This document shows positions 8,523 through 13,607 of a stretch of 64,000 nucleotides of DNA, piece by piece. Every line of letters starts with the position of its first letter. Positions within the stretch are counted from its first letter, which is position 1. Made by a program: the position numbers and the translations under genes. This DNA is from the human T2T-CHM13v2.0 reference genome, Homo sapiens, in contig CP086569.2 in the NCBI GenBank assembly GCA_009914755.4, positions 19,520,001 to 19,584,000 of the forward strand, written 5' to 3'. The notes under the pieces were generated by a model that did no database searches, was not told where the DNA came from, and saw only the letters and a list, made by a program, of their open reading frames with translations.

Positions 8523-8704
8523 CTTGATGCTTTTGAATTCTCTCAAGGATACTCTTTTCCCAAAAAATGATGGCTTCAGGCTCCGACTGACAAGCCTTCT
8601 CAAAATCTTTCCTGAACACAGTTAATTTTTCCCATACTTTCCTTTTGCTTTATTTTAATTTTTGCTATCTCAGCAGCTTAACAGAAGTTTATCTGCAAAT
8701 TGAT
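8523..8704 (-). pseudogene. OFD1: OFD1-like exon (pseudogene fragment), homologous to the OFD1 region [58 protein letters not shown]
   Basis: The minus-strand translation reads INFC*AAEIAKIKIKQKESMGKINCVQERF* with a 1-bp shift, then [30 protein letters not shown], followed by GT. There are in-frame stops and a frameshift. The acceptor is tttgcag. Confidence 0.8.
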
Positions 8705-8775
8705 CACAAAAAAATTAAAAATTTTAACTATTATACTCTAAGAAGAGTAACAAATATTGTCTTCACATCCAGGCT
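8633..8775 (-). repeat. Direct repeat of about 150 bp (copy B). It overlaps the 5' part of the OFD1-like exon at 8523-8704 and its intron/acceptor
   Basis: Aligns to 7125-7270. Confidence 0.6.
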
Positions 8776-8980
8776 CAACATTAATGCTCTGTCCAAATAT
8801 ATTACATTTAGTTCATCTTTAGTTTTATCTCACTCACTATATTTGTAGGATTCACTCAAAAGGCATAAACAAATGTCAACAGAAATAAAAGTAATGTGCA
8901 CAATAGTGGAGTATCCCATTCTTTATTAAAATTCCTAGTTTTTTTTTTTTTCTATACCTTAGATTAAGACTTTAGAAGGC

Positions 8981-9567
8981 TGTTGAGACAACCAGCCCCA
9001 CACCACCTAGCACGTACCCTGAGTCTGGTGGAGACAAAGGGTTAGAAAGAGATAGAATCAGTATTTAAAAGGCTGTTCCAGAGGACCAAAGCATCGGAGG
9101 CTTGCTCACCGTTCAGAGTTCCTGGGCTCCACCCAATTTGTTGGTTTACAAGCATTTTGATCTTAGGACAGATGGGAGCAGAAGGAAGGGATGAGGAAAA
9201 GGATTAATCAGTGTAGAGGAACTCGTGAGTCTTTCAATAAGCTACATAGTAGTGGCAGTTTCTGTGAATTTCCTTGAGCCAAAGGCATGTGTCTAAACTA
9301 CTTAAGATCTTTAACTTATCAGAACTGAAATGGGTGAGAGCAGCTTTCAGGAGGAGCCAAGATGTTTGATTATACTCCACCGCTTCAAGGGAGTGTTATC
9401 TCCCTGAGCAACCTGAGGAATGCCGCTGAGTGCTTATGCTCTGGGGGCATAAAGACATGGAGGCAATAAGGAGACTTTTCTCCTCAGCAGCCACCCATGG
9501 CTCCCCATGGATGTCTCACATAGGGGAGAACAACTCAACTGGCACCACAGAAACTCTCCTTTCCACA
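8981..9567 (-). repeat. Provirus 1 3' LTR
   Basis: rc starts TGTGGAAAGGAGAGTTTCTGTGGTGCC and ends ...ggtt..ca. It is homologous to 12820-13423 and to provirus 2 LTRs. The adjacent PPT is gacaaaaaagagagaca (rc of 9568-9584). Confidence 0.85.
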
Positions 9568-11290
9568 TGTCTCTCTTTTTTGTCTTTATTAATTTTTTGA
9601 TTAATAACTGCCATTGCTATCATGGCTGGTGTCTGGCCTCTCACCCAAGGGGCTGTCTGCATCTGTTGACTAAAAACAAATAGCATAAGCAGACACAAAC
9701 CAAAATAAAATTTGCAATTGTTGATCCACCTATGGTTTTAATCTACTTTAAAGGAATGGTATTAGAAAAGCCATCAGTGGCTCCAGCAAGAATATCAGCT
9801 CCAGGCAACAGGATAAGATGAGCCTGAGATGACTCAAAAACTTGTTTTTTCAGTTTGGCAATATCTAGTGTTAAACTATGTTCTTTTCCTTGTGGGTGAT
9901 GTCTAATCATCTCTCAATGATGTTCAGTGACATTATAGGGCTAGGAGAAACACAAAAATCCAAAGTATTCCAATCACATTGCATTTGACTTCTACACTCC
10001 AAGCCAGTAGTCCAATCCCCCATCCAAATTACTGTCTGACAGAGATCATTAATTTGATTTGCCAATTTTTGATCTACTTGGCTTTGGGAATTCCAAAGCT
10101 TAGAAGAATTTTTCTGCCAACTATCCACAAAGCCCGCAGTTTGAATAGAAGAGTGCAAAGCAGCAACAGTGCAGAAGCAGTAGCTGTGACAGCTATAAGG
10201 CCCATGACCACAGCTATTAAAGTAAATATGAATCTCTTTGATCTATTAAATATTCCTTTTAGTACTTCAGTGATAATATGTATGGAGGGAGAGTCCTCCC
10301 AAGGTCTATTGAGGGAAACAAGTATCTGAATTCCTTCTCAGGCCCTAACCAGTAAAAATGCTATTATCTTTATTAAAGGTAGAATTAATGCAGGTAAAAA
10401 GGTGACAGTTAAGGCAGGGTATGGTTTCGGAGTCAGGTAGGAAATTAATTTTCCCGGCTGCCAACATAAAAGGAGGTTTAACAAAACTCTGCAATGGGAC
10501 CGTCTGATTAGAGGTCATGGCTACAGCAAATGAAAGTTTTTTACTATGAGTCTCTGTTTTATATTCTCCTATCCAAATCCAAACTGGGGTTTGAGCCATC
10601 ATTAATTTCCACAGTTCTGGATGTTCTGGTCTCATAACTGGATCGATCATTTTTGGGCTTGGAGGAGCCATACCATTCTCCTCCCACTTAATAGGGTAAT
10701 TTGTTTCAATTCTTCTACATAATTTTGGTGCATTATCTGGGTAGTCATTTGCAGGAGTCCCTCTACAATCTTTGCGCTGGCCAGTAAAATTTACTGCAAA
10801 GTGTCCCCTAGGGACCCAATCAATGGCGATGTTATAGGAATTATTTTACAGTAGCGCAGCACTGTTTGCAATACAATCTTCCCAAGTTAGCACCTCTAAC
10901 TTTTCAGGCCATTTAGTGGCCTGCCTAGGGCAGGGATTCATATTAGGTTTAAATTCAGTAATCTGGCAACGTGTCATAACATAGCCGTGCTCAAGTATTT
11001 AATAGTGTCCAAAGATTAAAATGTTGCTTCATTGATTGCATGAATAGAGGCTTTTGATGCATTTTGTGTAGGGACATTTATGTCCCACTTTATCATAATT
11101 TAAACATCCTGCTGCCAGCCCCAGGCAGATGGGAGGAAAGCGATAATCAATGGAAACATTCACCAACATTCCCGCCTGCTCTAGATGAGTAGGACCTTGC
11201 TTATCTGTTGGTCCATCCACCAGGAGGGTCTAACCACGCAACAGGCCTAATCAGTAGTGGGAATGGAATGTAGACCCAGTAAGTGTAATT
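9516..11290 (-). pseudogene. env: Provirus 1 env remnant: SU N-terminal part, SU C-terminal part, and TM including the fusion-peptide region and membrane anchor
   Basis: ORFs on the minus strand match HERV-K Env, with frameshifts between them. 11029-11220 reads ...[23 protein letters not shown]. 10345-10671 reads ...PEHPELWKLMMAQTP...[43 protein letters not shown]. 9907-10158 reads ...[35 protein letters not shown]...CDWNTLDFC. Confidence 0.85.
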
Positions 11291-12666: not shown

Positions 12667-12801
12667 CCCTGGAATTCTCTGAGTGCCCTACTTACCCACG
12701 GAGCTTGAAGTGAAAATGTACTCGGGCCTCCTTCATCAGGCGTCCTCCACTTTCCACTCTCTGTCATTTCTTTACCAGATTATTTGTAGAGATTACTTGG
12801 A

Positions 12802-12819
12802 GCACTGTGTTGTGTGCCA
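12802..12819 (-). promoter_or_regulatory. Provirus 1 primer-binding site (tRNA-Lys-like, degenerate)
   Basis: rc TGGCACACAACACAGTGC lies immediately after the 5' LTR end. Compare TGGCACCTAACACGGGGC in provirus 2 and the canonical HERV-K TGGCGCCCAACGTGGGGC. Confidence 0.7.
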
Positions 12820-13423
12820 CATGGGGAAACCATCCCCTCACCACCCAGTGGGTCCCCTGAGTCCCGTGCAGACAAAGGAGTTAGAAAGAGATAGAATCAG
12901 TGTTTAAAAGGTGGGTTAAGGGAACTGCAGTGTCAAAGGCTTGTTCATGGCCCAGAGTTCTTAGGCTCCACCCAATTTGTTGGTTTACAAGCTCTTTGTT
13001 CTTATGTCAGATGGGAGGGGGGAGGAAGGGATGAAGAAAAGGATTAATCAATGAAGGAGAAGTCATGAGTCATTCAATAAGATGTGTAGCAGTGGCAGTT
13101 TCTGTGAATTTTCTTGAGTAAAGGTGTGTGTTTAAACTACTTAAGATATTTAACATATTGGGACTGAAGCAGGTGGGAGCAGGTTTCAGGAGGAGCCAAG
13201 ACGTTTGATTACACTCCACTCTTTCCAGGGAGTGTTATCTCCCCGAGGAACCTGTAGAATGCCACTGAGTGGATATGCTCTCTGAGTGGTTACGCTCTCA
13301 GGGCATAAAGACATGAAGGCAATAAGGAGACTTTTCTCCTCAGAGGCCACTCATGGCTCGCCATGGGTGTCTCACACAGGGGAGACAAACTCAACTGGCA
13401 ACCCAGATACACTTTTTCTCACA
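12820..13423 (-). repeat. Provirus 1 5' LTR
   Basis: rc starts TGTGAGAAAAAGTGTATCTGG. It is about 85-88% identical to 8981-9567 and has a small internal tandem duplication (ctgagtggatatgctctctgagtggttacgctctc). Confidence 0.85.
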
Positions 13424-13474
13424 GAAGACAAACAAAAATGTCACTCTTGTTAACAATAACAAGGTAAAGCTTAC

Positions 13475-13607
13475 ATTTTGACACATTTCTGCCTGAACTT
13501 GCTCTTTTATTTCTCTCTCATATTCATTTAGCTTTATTTCTAAAGACTCACCCTTGATATGCTGAGAGTAAGCATCTGCAAACTGATCATCAATAAGCTG
13601 AAACTTC
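13475..13607 (-). pseudogene. OFD1: OFD1-like exon (pseudogene fragment), homologous to [43 protein letters not shown]
   Basis: The minus translation reads [44 protein letters not shown], followed by GTAAGC. It lies 52 bp upstream, in the gene's own orientation, of the provirus 1 5' LTR. Confidence 0.85.

What the first reader, a model, noticed from the sequence alone, without database searches (positions are those of the whole stretch)
8523..13607. Second, inverted OFD1-like mid-gene fragment with a provirus in its intron
Two OFD1-like exons lie on the minus strand, at 13475-13607 (the LQLIDD...EMCQK region) and 8523-8704 (the LKFFKD...KHQE region). They are in correct 5'-to-3' order for a minus-strand gene. 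This is opposite to the OFD1-like 5' exons at 60.7-62 kb on the plus strand and lies on the wrong side of them. Either the window holds two partial OFD1-like copies in inverted orientation, as in a palindrome arm or inverted duplication, or a single copy was rearranged by inversion. Provirus 1 (8981-13423) sits entirely within the intron between these exons, in the gene's orientation, starting 52 bp after the donor site. The downstream exon has lost frame and gained stops, so it is a pseudogene.
Basis: partly seen in the sequence, partly recalled or inferred. Interest (0 to 1): 0.65.

Follow-up and report, generated by a model that had tools for sequence, protein, structure and literature searches.

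The report
Known Y-palindrome copy of OFD1 pseudogene
This is a dead, partial copy of the cilia gene OFD1 with an ancient retrovirus in one intron. It lies in one arm of the human Y-chromosome palindrome P4, and it belongs to a pseudogene family that has been catalogued since 2003, so it is real but ordinary.

Summary

- **OFD1 relics, minus strand.** The window holds exon 7 (13611-13475, open frame, acceptor AG>AC) and exon 8 (8692-8521, early TAA and a net -2 frameshift).
- **Provirus in intron 7.** A 4.4-kb betaretrovirus-like provirus (13423-8981) lies in the gene's orientation and starts at intron position +52. It has a GTCTTC target-site duplication and LTRs diverged by K≈0.2. Other Y copies share the same insertion, and one divergent OFD1 copy has an empty site.
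- **Location.** All three DYS385 primers match exactly at 26.0-26.4 kb. [quoted passage not shown] So 1 to about 27 kb is arm, and about 27-64 kb is spacer.
- **Spacer content.** The spacer carries RAB9A and TRAPPC2 relics and OFD1 exons 2-3, in the same order as Xp22.2.
- **Meaning.** The minus-strand fragment is the arm-borne mirror copy of the 3' part of one OFD1Y relic. The "palindrome arm" alternative is right, and "single inversion" is not.
- **Fit to the literature.** Spacings match Chang et al. 2011 pseudogenes p13, p2 and p1.

Already known; low interest.

The parts
15428..15532 (-). OFD1 exon 6 relic (105 nt). AG acceptor and GT donor are intact, and there is an in-frame TAA.
   Evidence: tblastn aa 138-173, 75% identity, E=2e-11. 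Sequence read.
13475..13611 (-). OFD1 exon 7 relic (137 nt). The frame is open and the donor GT is intact. The acceptor is AC where paralogue L003 has AG.
   Evidence: (77% identity, E=3e-16). L009 joins exon 6 to this exact start.
8981..13423 (-). Provirus 1, a betaretrovirus-like (class II, HERV-K supergroup) element in intron 7 with its pro-pol region deleted.
- 5' LTR: 13423-12822.
- Lys-like primer-binding site: 12819-12802.
- Gag_p10: about 12622-12386.
- Gag_p24: about 11707-11303.
- Weak GP41 match: about 10164-9934.
- Polypurine tract: 9580-9568.
- 3' LTR: 9567-8981.
   Evidence: LTR pair. K2P 0.205. Pfam hits: Gag_p24 1.8e-11, Gag_p24_C 8.7e-18, Gag_p10 2.9e-22, GP41 8.9e-07. Homology to provirus 2.
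13424..13429 (-). Upstream target-site duplication, GTCTTC.
   Evidence: Paralogues L004, L005 and L007 have LTR...CA|GTCTTC on the 3' side.
8975..8980 (-). Downstream target-site duplication, GCCTTC (one substitution from GTCTTC).
   Evidence: The empty site GCCATC occurs once in the divergent copy carried by L002.
8521..8692 (-). OFD1 exon 8 relic (172 nt). AG and GT are intact. It has a TAA at codon 5 and a net -2 frameshift.
   Evidence: aa 234-277, 57% identity, E=1e-10.
7109..7264 (-). Old direct duplicate of the end of intron 7 plus the first ~80 nt of exon 8 (85-89% identical to 8623-8772). It is truncated where the duplicated block 1-7109 begins.
1..7109 (-). Old direct duplicate (83-87% identity, K=0.14-0.17) of 14766-22203. 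It carries a second exon 6 relic at 793-651 with a 38-nt internal insertion.
   Evidence: tblastn hit at 834-649.
14766..22203 (-). Partner of that direct duplication. It contains exon 6 and about 6.7 kb upstream of it. An Alu at about 20190-20493 was inserted after the duplication.
26021..26417 (+). Y-STR DYS385, proximal copy (DYS385b), with 18 pure CTTT units at 26163-26234. It marks the inner end of the P4 proximal arm. The arm-spacer boundary is inferred at about 26.9-27.05 kb.
   Evidence: Exact primer matches. Primer identity confirmed in PMC3168162. GRCh38 positions and strands from PMC12986293. The 650-bp distance from PMC4233959. TRF and repeat count.
36148..36756 (+). RAB9A relic with 7 stop codons, lying in the P4 spacer.
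   Evidence: tblastn E=1e-49. Pfam Ras 7.9e-28. Stop count.
41994..42664 (-). TRAPPC2 (SEDL) relic. Two exons (42664-42515 and 42080-41994) with the intron between them retained.
   Evidence: tblastn E=3.5e-19 and 2e-10. Pfam Sedlin_N 1.3e-18.
60686..62041 (+). 5' part of the OFD1Y relic in the spacer. Exon 2 is 60686-60784. Exon 3 is 61839 to about 62040 and contains stops. A decayed CpG island lies just upstream at about 59.5-60.5 kb.

Best explanation
**What it is.** The fragment is the proximal-arm copy, within human Y palindrome P4, of exons 6-8 of a degenerate Y-linked OFD1 gene. It belongs to the catalogued OFD1P#Y family of unprocessed pseudogenes.

**Origin of the gene block.** The ancestral sex-chromosome block RAB9A(+), TRAPPC2(-), OFD1(+) survived on the Y as a relic. 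Its 5' portion (the RAB9A relic, the TRAPPC2 relic, a decayed promoter CpG island and OFD1 exons 2-3) now lies in the roughly 40-kb single-copy P4 spacer.

**Why there is an inverted copy.** The rest of OFD1, from exon 6 onward, lies in the palindrome arm. It therefore exists twice. One copy is on the plus strand in the distal arm, downstream of exons 2-3 and outside this window. The other is its mirror image on the minus strand in the proximal arm, and that is the flagged segment.

**Order of events (inferred from divergence).**
1. A betaretrovirus-like provirus integrated in sense orientation into the roughly 330-bp intron 7, making a GTCTTC duplication (LTR K≈0.2).
2. The exon 6-8 region underwent tandem duplication (K≈0.12-0.17).
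3. The region was amplified into further Y copies, now 1-4% diverged.

Where P4 formation falls in this order was not determined.

**Function.** The fragment has no coding function. It carries stops in exons 6 and 8, a frameshift in exon 8 and a lost exon 7 acceptor. It persists as a passenger in an arm that arm-to-arm gene conversion keeps homogeneous.

**Shown here:** the exon relics and their lesions, the provirus anatomy, the shared insertion and the empty site, the DYS385 match, and the colinear spacer block.

**Inferred:** the mirror copy in the distal arm, the exact arm boundary, and the dates.
For: **Exons and lesions.**

**The window is human.** Contig L001 from a human oral metagenome is 100% identical to the window over 2904 bp.

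**Provirus.**
- LTRs, target-site duplication and primer-binding site.
- Gag_p10 and Gag_p24 on the minus strand.
- The sister provirus 2 carries dUTPase, protease, G-patch and RT.
- The same LTR-to-flank junction, CA|GTCTTC, occurs in paralogues 96% identical to the window.
- A divergent OFD1 copy has an empty site.

**Tandem duplications.**

**Block colinear with the X.** RAB9A and TRAPPC2 relics and the CpG island relic.

**P4 placement.**
- Three DYS385 primers match exactly.
- The primers are confirmed as DYS385.
- CCAATTACATAGTCCTCCTTTC maps on the plus strand at GRCh38 chrY:18,639,683 for the proximal copy and on the minus strand at 18,680,717 for the distal copy. These lie on the inverted P4 arms, separated by a spacer of about 40 kb.

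**Fit to published pseudogene coordinates (Chang 2011 Table 2).**
- p13(-), p2(-) and p1(+) start 14,810 and 46,275 bp apart.
- In the window, the spacings are 14,810 (exon 6' to exon 6) and 46,307 (exon 6 to exon 3).
- Coverage of p1 (69%) is about that of p2 (61%) plus the 5' exons.

**Literature.** RAB9A-SEDL-OFD1Y clusters lie in human Y palindromes.
Against: - The distal arm is outside the window, so the mirror copy and the arm boundary are not observed directly.
- Attempts to find contigs spanning the other arm-spacer junction failed.
Pfam supports only RAB9A (Ras) and TRAPPC2 (Sedlin).
- Neither Pfam nor the PDB recognises the OFD1 pieces.
- Exons 4-5 were not found anywhere in the window, so colinearity between exon 3 and exon 6 cannot be shown.
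- The p1 span in Chang's table is about 18 kb longer than a simple mirror of p2 would predict.
Confidence: 0.88

Rival explanations
1. A single OFD1Y copy was split by one inversion. The block from RAB9A to OFD1 exon 3 flipped relative to exons 6-8, and there is no second copy of exons 6-8.
For: - The two pieces carry complementary, non-overlapping exon sets (2-3 versus 6-8), in exactly the order and orientation that one inversion would give.
- No OFD1 sequence occurs in both orientations within the window.
Against: - The DYS385b match places 1 to about 27 kb inside a palindrome arm, which by definition has an inverted twin.
- Chang's p1 (plus strand, 69% coverage) extends 81 kb and includes more than the 5' exons, while p2 (minus strand, 61%) lacks only about 8%.
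Confidence: 0.05
2. The minus-strand fragment is an independently dispersed, truncated amplicon copy that merely happens to lie next to the RAB9A-TRAPPC2-OFD1 5' block, and it has no mirror partner. This would hold if, for example, the arm lies on the other side of DYS385.
For: - The family has 18 scattered copies with very different coverage, on both strands.
- Several paralogues at 92-99% identity were recovered.
- Which side of DYS385 is the arm was decided from published primer strands and coordinates, not from the sequence itself.
Against: - The proximal-copy primer is reported on the plus strand and the distal-copy primer on the minus strand, 41 kb further on. So the spacer lies to the right of the array in the window and the arm to the left.
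- If exons 2-3 were in an arm, a mirrored minus-strand copy with the same coverage would be expected in Chang's table, and none is listed.
Confidence: 0.05
3. The two segments are not OFD1. They are chance matches or belong to another coiled-coil gene.
For: - Pfam and the PDB give no hit for these pieces.
Against: - The E-values are 1e-10 to 3e-16 in a 64-kb search. Three consecutive exons appear in order with the expected lengths (105 and 137 nt, and 172 where about 174 is expected) and with splice sites.
- Contig L009 joins exon 6 to exon 7 exactly at these boundaries.
- The segments are linked to RAB9A and Sedlin relics as published for OFD1Y clusters.
- The coordinates fit published OFD1Y pseudogenes.
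Confidence: 0.01

Closest known systems
Human Y-linked OFD1 pseudogenes (18 copies, which I recall HGNC names OFD1P1Y-OFD1P18Y). Best fit is ChrY_HOMSAp2 with p13 and p1 in Chang et al. 2011 (PMC3193505), first described by Ferrante et al. 2003, Genomics 81:560.
   Same: - Intron-containing, disabled OFD1 copies lying in ampliconic or palindromic Y sequence.
- Clustered with RAB9A and SEDL (TRAPPC2) relics.
- Strands and spacings of p13, p2 and p1 match the window to within about 30 bp.
   Different: Nothing substantive. Details not mentioned in the text I could read are the sense-oriented provirus in intron 7, the old tandem duplication of exon 6 and part of exon 8, and the position of the gene relic across the P4 spacer-arm boundary.
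Palindrome P4 of the human male-specific Y region (Skaletsky et al. 2003). It contains the duplicated Y-STR DYS385a/b.
   Same: The window holds an exact DYS385 primer set in the orientation reported for the proximal copy. The spacer implied by the published distal coordinates is about 39-41 kb.
   Different: Only one arm end and about 37 kb of spacer are in the window. Arm-to-arm identity could not be measured.
Bovine OFD1Y (Chang et al. 2011).
   Same: It is the Y gametologue of OFD1 and derives from the same ancestral autosomal pair.
   Different: Bovine OFD1Y is a single-copy, expressed, apparently functional gene in X-degenerate sequence. The human copies are fragmented, amplified and dead.
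Class II (betaretrovirus-like, HERV-K supergroup) endogenous retroviruses.
   Same: - LTRs of about 590 bp with TG...CA ends.
- A 6-bp target-site duplication.
- A Lys-like primer-binding site.
- Gag_p10 and p24.
- The sister element has a dUTPase, protease and G-patch arrangement and RT.
   Different: The provirus is heavily decayed and has lost pro-pol. The exact Repbase, Dfam or HML family could not be assigned with these tools.

Membership tests
Y-linked unprocessed OFD1 pseudogene (OFD1P#Y) | Significant similarity to OFD1 coding exons. | tested here: met
   tblastn E=2e-11, 3e-16 and 1e-10 for exons 6, 7 and 8. It is cross-checked by database ORFs P0002 and P0003.
Y-linked unprocessed OFD1 pseudogene (OFD1P#Y) | Exon-intron structure is retained, so the copy is not a retrocopy. 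| tested here: met
   Exons of 105, 137 and 172 nt are separated by introns. AG and GT are present at 5 of 6 splice sites.
Y-linked unprocessed OFD1 pseudogene (OFD1P#Y) | Disabling lesions are present. | tested here: met
   TAA in exon 6, TAA plus a -2 frameshift in exon 8, exon 7 acceptor AG>AC, and no exons 4-5 or 9-23.
Y-linked unprocessed OFD1 pseudogene (OFD1P#Y) | Linked to RAB9A and SEDL (TRAPPC2) relics, forming a RAB9A-SEDL-OFD1Y cluster. | tested here: met
   Ras-family relic at 36148-36756 (+) and Sedlin_N relic at 42664-41994 (-), both upstream of OFD1 exons 2-3 (+). The cluster is described.
Y-linked unprocessed OFD1 pseudogene (OFD1P#Y) | Located on the human Y chromosome. | tested here: met
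   Indirect evidence only:
- Exact DYS385 primer sites.
- 100% identity to a contig from a human sample.
- Spacings equal to those of the Y pseudogenes p13, p2 and p1.

No Y assembly was available to align against.
Arm of Y palindrome P4 | Contains a DYS385 copy near its inner end, in the orientation of the proximal copy. | tested here: met
   The primer CCAATTACATAGTCCTCCTTTC lies on the plus strand at 26134-26155 with the array to its right, as reported for DYS385b.
Arm of Y palindrome P4 | An inverted second arm at about 99.9% identity or more lies across a spacer of about 40 kb. | not testable with these tools
   The distal arm would start at about window-equivalent 66.3 kb, beyond the 64-kb window. 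No human Y assembly is available. Junction-contig searches found nothing.
Arm of Y palindrome P4 | An inverted duplicate of the flagged OFD1 sequence is visible within the window. | tested here: not met
   Self-BLAST shows only provirus, Alu and L1 inverted matches, at 66-82% identity. This is expected if the partner lies outside the window.
Betaretrovirus-like (class II, HERV-K supergroup) provirus | Paired LTRs with TG...CA ends, flanked by a 6-bp target-site duplication. | tested here: met
   LTRs at 13423-12822 and 9567-8981. Duplication GTCTTC / GCCTTC, perfect in the paralogues. An empty site exists in a divergent copy.
Betaretrovirus-like (class II, HERV-K supergroup) provirus | Betaretroviral gag (p10 matrix and p24) and a dUTPase, protease, G-patch arrangement. 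| tested here: met
   Gag_p10 2.9e-22 and Gag_p24 1.8e-11 in provirus 1. dUTPase 6.7e-16, RVP and G-patch 3.8e-08 occur only in the related provirus 2, because that region is deleted from provirus 1.
Betaretrovirus-like (class II, HERV-K supergroup) provirus | Primer-binding site complementary to tRNA-Lys. | tested here: inconclusive
   12 of 18 positions match in provirus 1 and 14 of 18 in provirus 2. The comparison sequence, TGGCGCCCAACGTGGGGC, was recalled from memory.

The most novel reading that the evidence does not exclude
The inner boundary of palindrome P4 cuts through the relic of an OFD1Y intron, between exon 3 and exon 6. On this reading the inverted duplication that created P4 used the already dead RAB9A-TRAPPC2-OFD1Y block as its seed.

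The features that appear to predate it (provirus 1, K≈0.2; the exon 6/exon 8 tandem duplication, K≈0.12-0.17) and those that appear to follow it (paralogues 1-4% diverged) would then give an internal clock for the birth of a Y palindrome from X-degenerate sequence. A further possibility is that the sense-oriented provirus, 52 bp past the exon 7 donor, was an early truncating hit on primate OFD1Y.
Probability: 0.3. Interest if true: 0.25.

Novelty: already known. Interest (0 to 1): 0.1.

Why it matters
It matters little beyond annotation. The segment is one of the catalogued human Y OFD1 pseudogene fragments, lying in a well-studied palindrome next to a standard forensic marker.

Its modest value is as a worked example of a general idea: ampliconic and palindromic Y sequence was built from X-degenerate gene relics. 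Chang et al. 2011 already proposed this. The nested events here (provirus, tandem duplication, later amplification) could help date P4 if they were compared across ape Y assemblies.

Tried and rejected
- **Rfam.** A gathering-threshold scan of the whole window gave no hits, and Alus do not reach the SRP threshold.
- **Pfam and PDB on the OFD1 relic translations.** Nothing significant was found. The LisH region of exon 3 is too decayed.
- **Full-text search for OFD1 peptide strings**, tried as a way to verify the remembered sequence. No papers were found.
- **Ferrante 2003.** The paper is not held in the library.
- **Other OFD1 exons and GPM6B.** tblastn for OFD1 exons 4-5 and 9-23 and for GPM6B gave no credible hits.
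- **The other P4 arm-spacer junction.** Three exact-ORF look-ups and one metagenome scan with a 34-mer were all empty.
- **Single-inversion model.** I favoured this at first because the exon sets are complementary. I abandoned it once DYS385 placed the fragment in a palindrome arm.
- **L002 as the X-linked OFD1 intron.** Not accepted. Its exon 7 has three differences from the remembered X protein and its exon 8 has a deletion, so it is only "a divergent OFD1 copy". The contig is 100% identical to the window up to 13568 and then switches copy, which most likely reflects a k-mer assembly chimera.

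
Full report
**1. The observation**

On the minus strand the window contains clear relics of three consecutive OFD1 coding exons. A tblastn search with human OFD1 gave these hits:
- aa 138-173 at 15533-15426: 75% identity, E=2e-11.
- aa 175-221 at 13606-13466: 77% identity, E=3e-16.
- aa 234-277 at 8649-8518: 57% identity, E=1e-10.

It is mitigated by database ORFs P0002 and P0003. These were found with the window's own translation, and they carry the X-type residues exactly where the window differs.

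Reading the DNA gives the exon boundaries:
- **Exon 6** is 15532-15428 (105 nt). AG and GT are intact, and there is an in-frame TAA.
- **Exon 7** is 13611-13475 (137 nt). The frame is open and the donor GT is intact. The acceptor is AC where paralogue L003 has AG.
- **Exon 8** is 8692-8521 (172 nt). AG and GT are intact. It has a TAA at its fifth codon and a net -2 frameshift.

Exon 6 was missed. No exons 4-5 or 9-23 are detectable anywhere in the window.

**2. The provirus**

- The direct repeats at 13423-12822 and 9567-8981 are LTRs with TG...CA ends, 82% identical, K2P 0.205.
- Next to the 5' LTR is a decayed Lys-like primer-binding site, TGGCACACAACACAGTGC. Next to the 3' LTR is a polypurine tract.
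- Pfam finds Gag_p10 (2.9e-22), Gag_p24 and Gag_p24_C, and a weak GP41 match, all on the minus strand.
- It is flanked by GTCTTC and GCCTTC. In paralogous human contigs the 3' flank reads CA|GTCTTC, so the 6-bp target-site duplication was originally perfect.
- A related element, provirus 2, lies at 52938-58843 on the plus strand. It has its own GCTAC(T) duplication and LTR K=0.19. It supplies the parts deleted from provirus 1: dUTPase, retroviral protease, G-patch and RT.
- Together these features identify the family as betaretrovirus-like (class II, HERV-K supergroup). The exact named family cannot be assigned with these tools.

**3. Related sequences elsewhere**

- Contig L001, from a human oral metagenome, is 100% identical to window 13308-16211. 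The window is therefore human.
- Five contigs from human-associated metagenomes cover the exon 8 region at 96-98.7% identity and form at least two further paralogue groups. Those that reach the LTR carry the same LTR-to-flank junction. The provirus therefore predates the amplification of these copies.
- Contig L002 is identical to the window up to 13568. It then switches to a copy only 76-85% identical, which is most simply explained as an assembly chimera at a conserved exonic stretch.
- That divergent copy has an intron 7 of about 310 bp with a single GCCATC where the window has the provirus. This is an empty site. It shows that the ancestral intron was short and that the insertion is lineage-specific. 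I could not show that this copy is the X gene.
- Contig L009 joins exon 6 to exon 7 exactly at the boundaries given above.

**4. Surroundings within the window**

- Window 1-7109 is an old direct duplicate of 14766-22203 (83-87% identity, K=0.14-0.17). It carries a second exon 6 relic at 793-651 with a 38-nt insertion.
- Window 7109-7264 is an old direct duplicate of the end of intron 7 plus the first ~80 nt of exon 8. The "mid-gene fragment" is therefore itself tandemly re-duplicated.
- To the right lie four features in the order and orientation of Xp22.2:
  - A RAB9A relic at 36148-36756 (+), Pfam Ras 7.9e-28, with 7 stops.
  - Two TRAPPC2 exons at 42664-41994 (-), Pfam Sedlin_N 1.3e-18.
  - A decayed CpG island at about 59.5-60.5 kb.
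  - OFD1 exons 2-3 on the plus strand.
- Chang et al. 2011 report 18 intron-containing OFD1 pseudogenes on the human Y. Citing Ferrante et al. 2003, they also report RAB9A-SEDL-OFD1Y clusters inside Y palindromes.

**5. Where the window lies**

- A (CTTT)n array at 26.15-26.38 kb is the forensic marker DYS385.
- Its published primers match exactly: AGCATGGGTGACAGAGCTA at 26399-26417 (-), TGGGATGCTAGGTAAAGCTG at 26021-26040 (+) and CCAATTACATAGTCCTCCTTTC at 26134-26155 (+).
- The primers are confirmed as DYS385 in PMC3168162 and PMC12986293.
- PMC12986293 maps the last primer to GRCh38 chrY:18,639,683-18,639,704 (+) for the proximal copy, DYS385b. It maps it to 18,680,717-18,680,696 (-) for the distal copy, DYS385a. 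The two lie on the inverted arms of palindrome P4 with a spacer of about 40 kb.
- The window's primer is on the plus strand with the array to its right, so this is DYS385b. It follows that:
  - Window 1 to about 27.0 kb is the inner end of the proximal arm.
  - About 27.0-64 kb is spacer.
  - The distal arm would begin at about 66.3 kb, just outside the window.
- As an independent check, Chang's Table 2 lists pseudogenes p13(-), p2(-) and p1(+) starting at chrY 20,776,169, 20,790,979 and 20,837,254. Those spacings are 14,810 and 46,275 bp.
- In the window, exon 6' to exon 6 is 14,810 bp and exon 6 to exon 3 is 46,307 bp, on the same strands.
- The p1 coverage (69%) equals the p2 coverage (61%) plus roughly the 5' exons.

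**6. Interpretation**

The flagged minus-strand segment is the proximal-arm mirror copy of the 3' part of one OFD1Y relic. The 5' part of that relic (exons 2-3, with the TRAPPC2 and RAB9A relics) lies in the P4 spacer. Its own exons 6-8, with the same provirus, should lie on the plus strand in the distal arm, at window-equivalent 77.8-84.8 kb.

The "single inversion" alternative fits the complementary exon sets seen within the window, but it becomes unnecessary once the palindrome context is known.

The likely order of events, judged by divergence, is:
1. Provirus insertion (K≈0.2).
2. Tandem duplication of the exon 6-8 region (K≈0.12-0.17).
3. Amplification into other Y copies (1-4% divergence).

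The timing of P4 formation within this order was not determined.

The fragment has no coding capacity and persists as a passenger in the arm. The mirror copy, the exact boundary and the dating are inferences, because the second arm is not in the window and no Y assembly was available.

**7. Novelty**

The finding is already known. The OFD1P#Y family, its clustering with RAB9A and SEDL relics in palindromes, the structure of P4 and the position of DYS385 are all published. Interest is low.

The added value here is the exact anatomy, the shared and empty provirus sites, and the placement in P4.

Noticed in passing
window 26163-26234: The DYS385b array has 18 uninterrupted CTTT (GAAA) units, and the window is about 32 bp longer than Chang's reference-assembly spacing between exon 6 and exon 3. 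This suggests the window comes from a different Y haplotype than the standard reference, possibly a T2T assembly. The haplogroup idea rests on memory only.
   Followed up: partly
window 52938-58843 (+): A second betaretrovirus-like provirus lies between the TRAPPC2 relic and the OFD1 promoter relic. It has its own GCTAC(T) target-site duplication, a primer-binding site TGGCACCTAACACGGGGC, and gag, dUTPase, protease, G-patch and partial RT. It is about 80% identical to provirus 1 and of similar age (LTR K=0.19), so it is an independent insertion rather than a duplicate.
   Followed up: yes
window 36148-36756 (+) and 41994-42664 (-): RAB9A relic (7 stops) and two TRAPPC2 (SEDL) exon relics with their intron retained. 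Together with OFD1 exons 2-3 they reproduce the Xp22.2 gene order inside the P4 spacer.
   Followed up: yes
window 59500-60500: A decayed CpG island (GC 0.51-0.58, CpG observed/expected about 0.45-0.55 against 0.18 for the whole window) lies just upstream of OFD1 exon 2. It is probably the relic of the shared TRAPPC2/OFD1 promoter. OFD1 exon 1 itself was not located.
   Followed up: partly
window 7109-7264 and 1-7109 versus 8623-8772 and 14766-22203: A truncated copy of the start of exon 8 is fused directly to the far-upstream end of the duplicated exon 6 block. This is a rearrangement junction that a single simple tandem duplication does not explain. At least two events are needed.
   Followed up: partly
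L002 (Logan SRR17049978), positions 1-1577 versus 1578-2035: The contig is 100% identical to the window and then abruptly only about 76-85% identical, switching inside exon 7 at a conserved stretch. This is most likely a k-mer assembly chimera between two OFD1 copies. The second copy has X-like residues (PQRIKF...CQK), three unique changes and a deletion in exon 8. Its genomic origin is unknown.
   Followed up: partly
L009 (ENA ERZ1023368) versus window 15707-15430 and 13611-13505: The contig contains the tail of intron 5, then exon 6 joined precisely to exon 7 with intron 6 removed, and then unrelated sequence after codon ~208. It could be a partly spliced OFD1P transcript in a metatranscriptome, a semi-processed copy or a chimera. 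Contig L003 breaks off exon 7 at almost the same point.
   Followed up: no
window 26000-33000: A very AT-rich stretch (GC 0.29-0.35) with strong AT skew, full of microsatellite and TA-rich tandem repeats. It begins at the inferred arm-spacer boundary of P4.
   Followed up: no
window 33764-34170 and 50140-50484; about 15 sites such as 15642-15937, 18145-18422, 20190-20493, 35282-35604: Fragments that look like the C-terminal part of L1 ORF2 (recognised from memory; Pfam gave no hit), and about 15 Alu-like repeats of 280-300 bp, roughly 70% identical to one another. The one at 20190-20493 is absent from the duplicate block at 5410/5413, so it was inserted after that duplication.
   Followed up: partly
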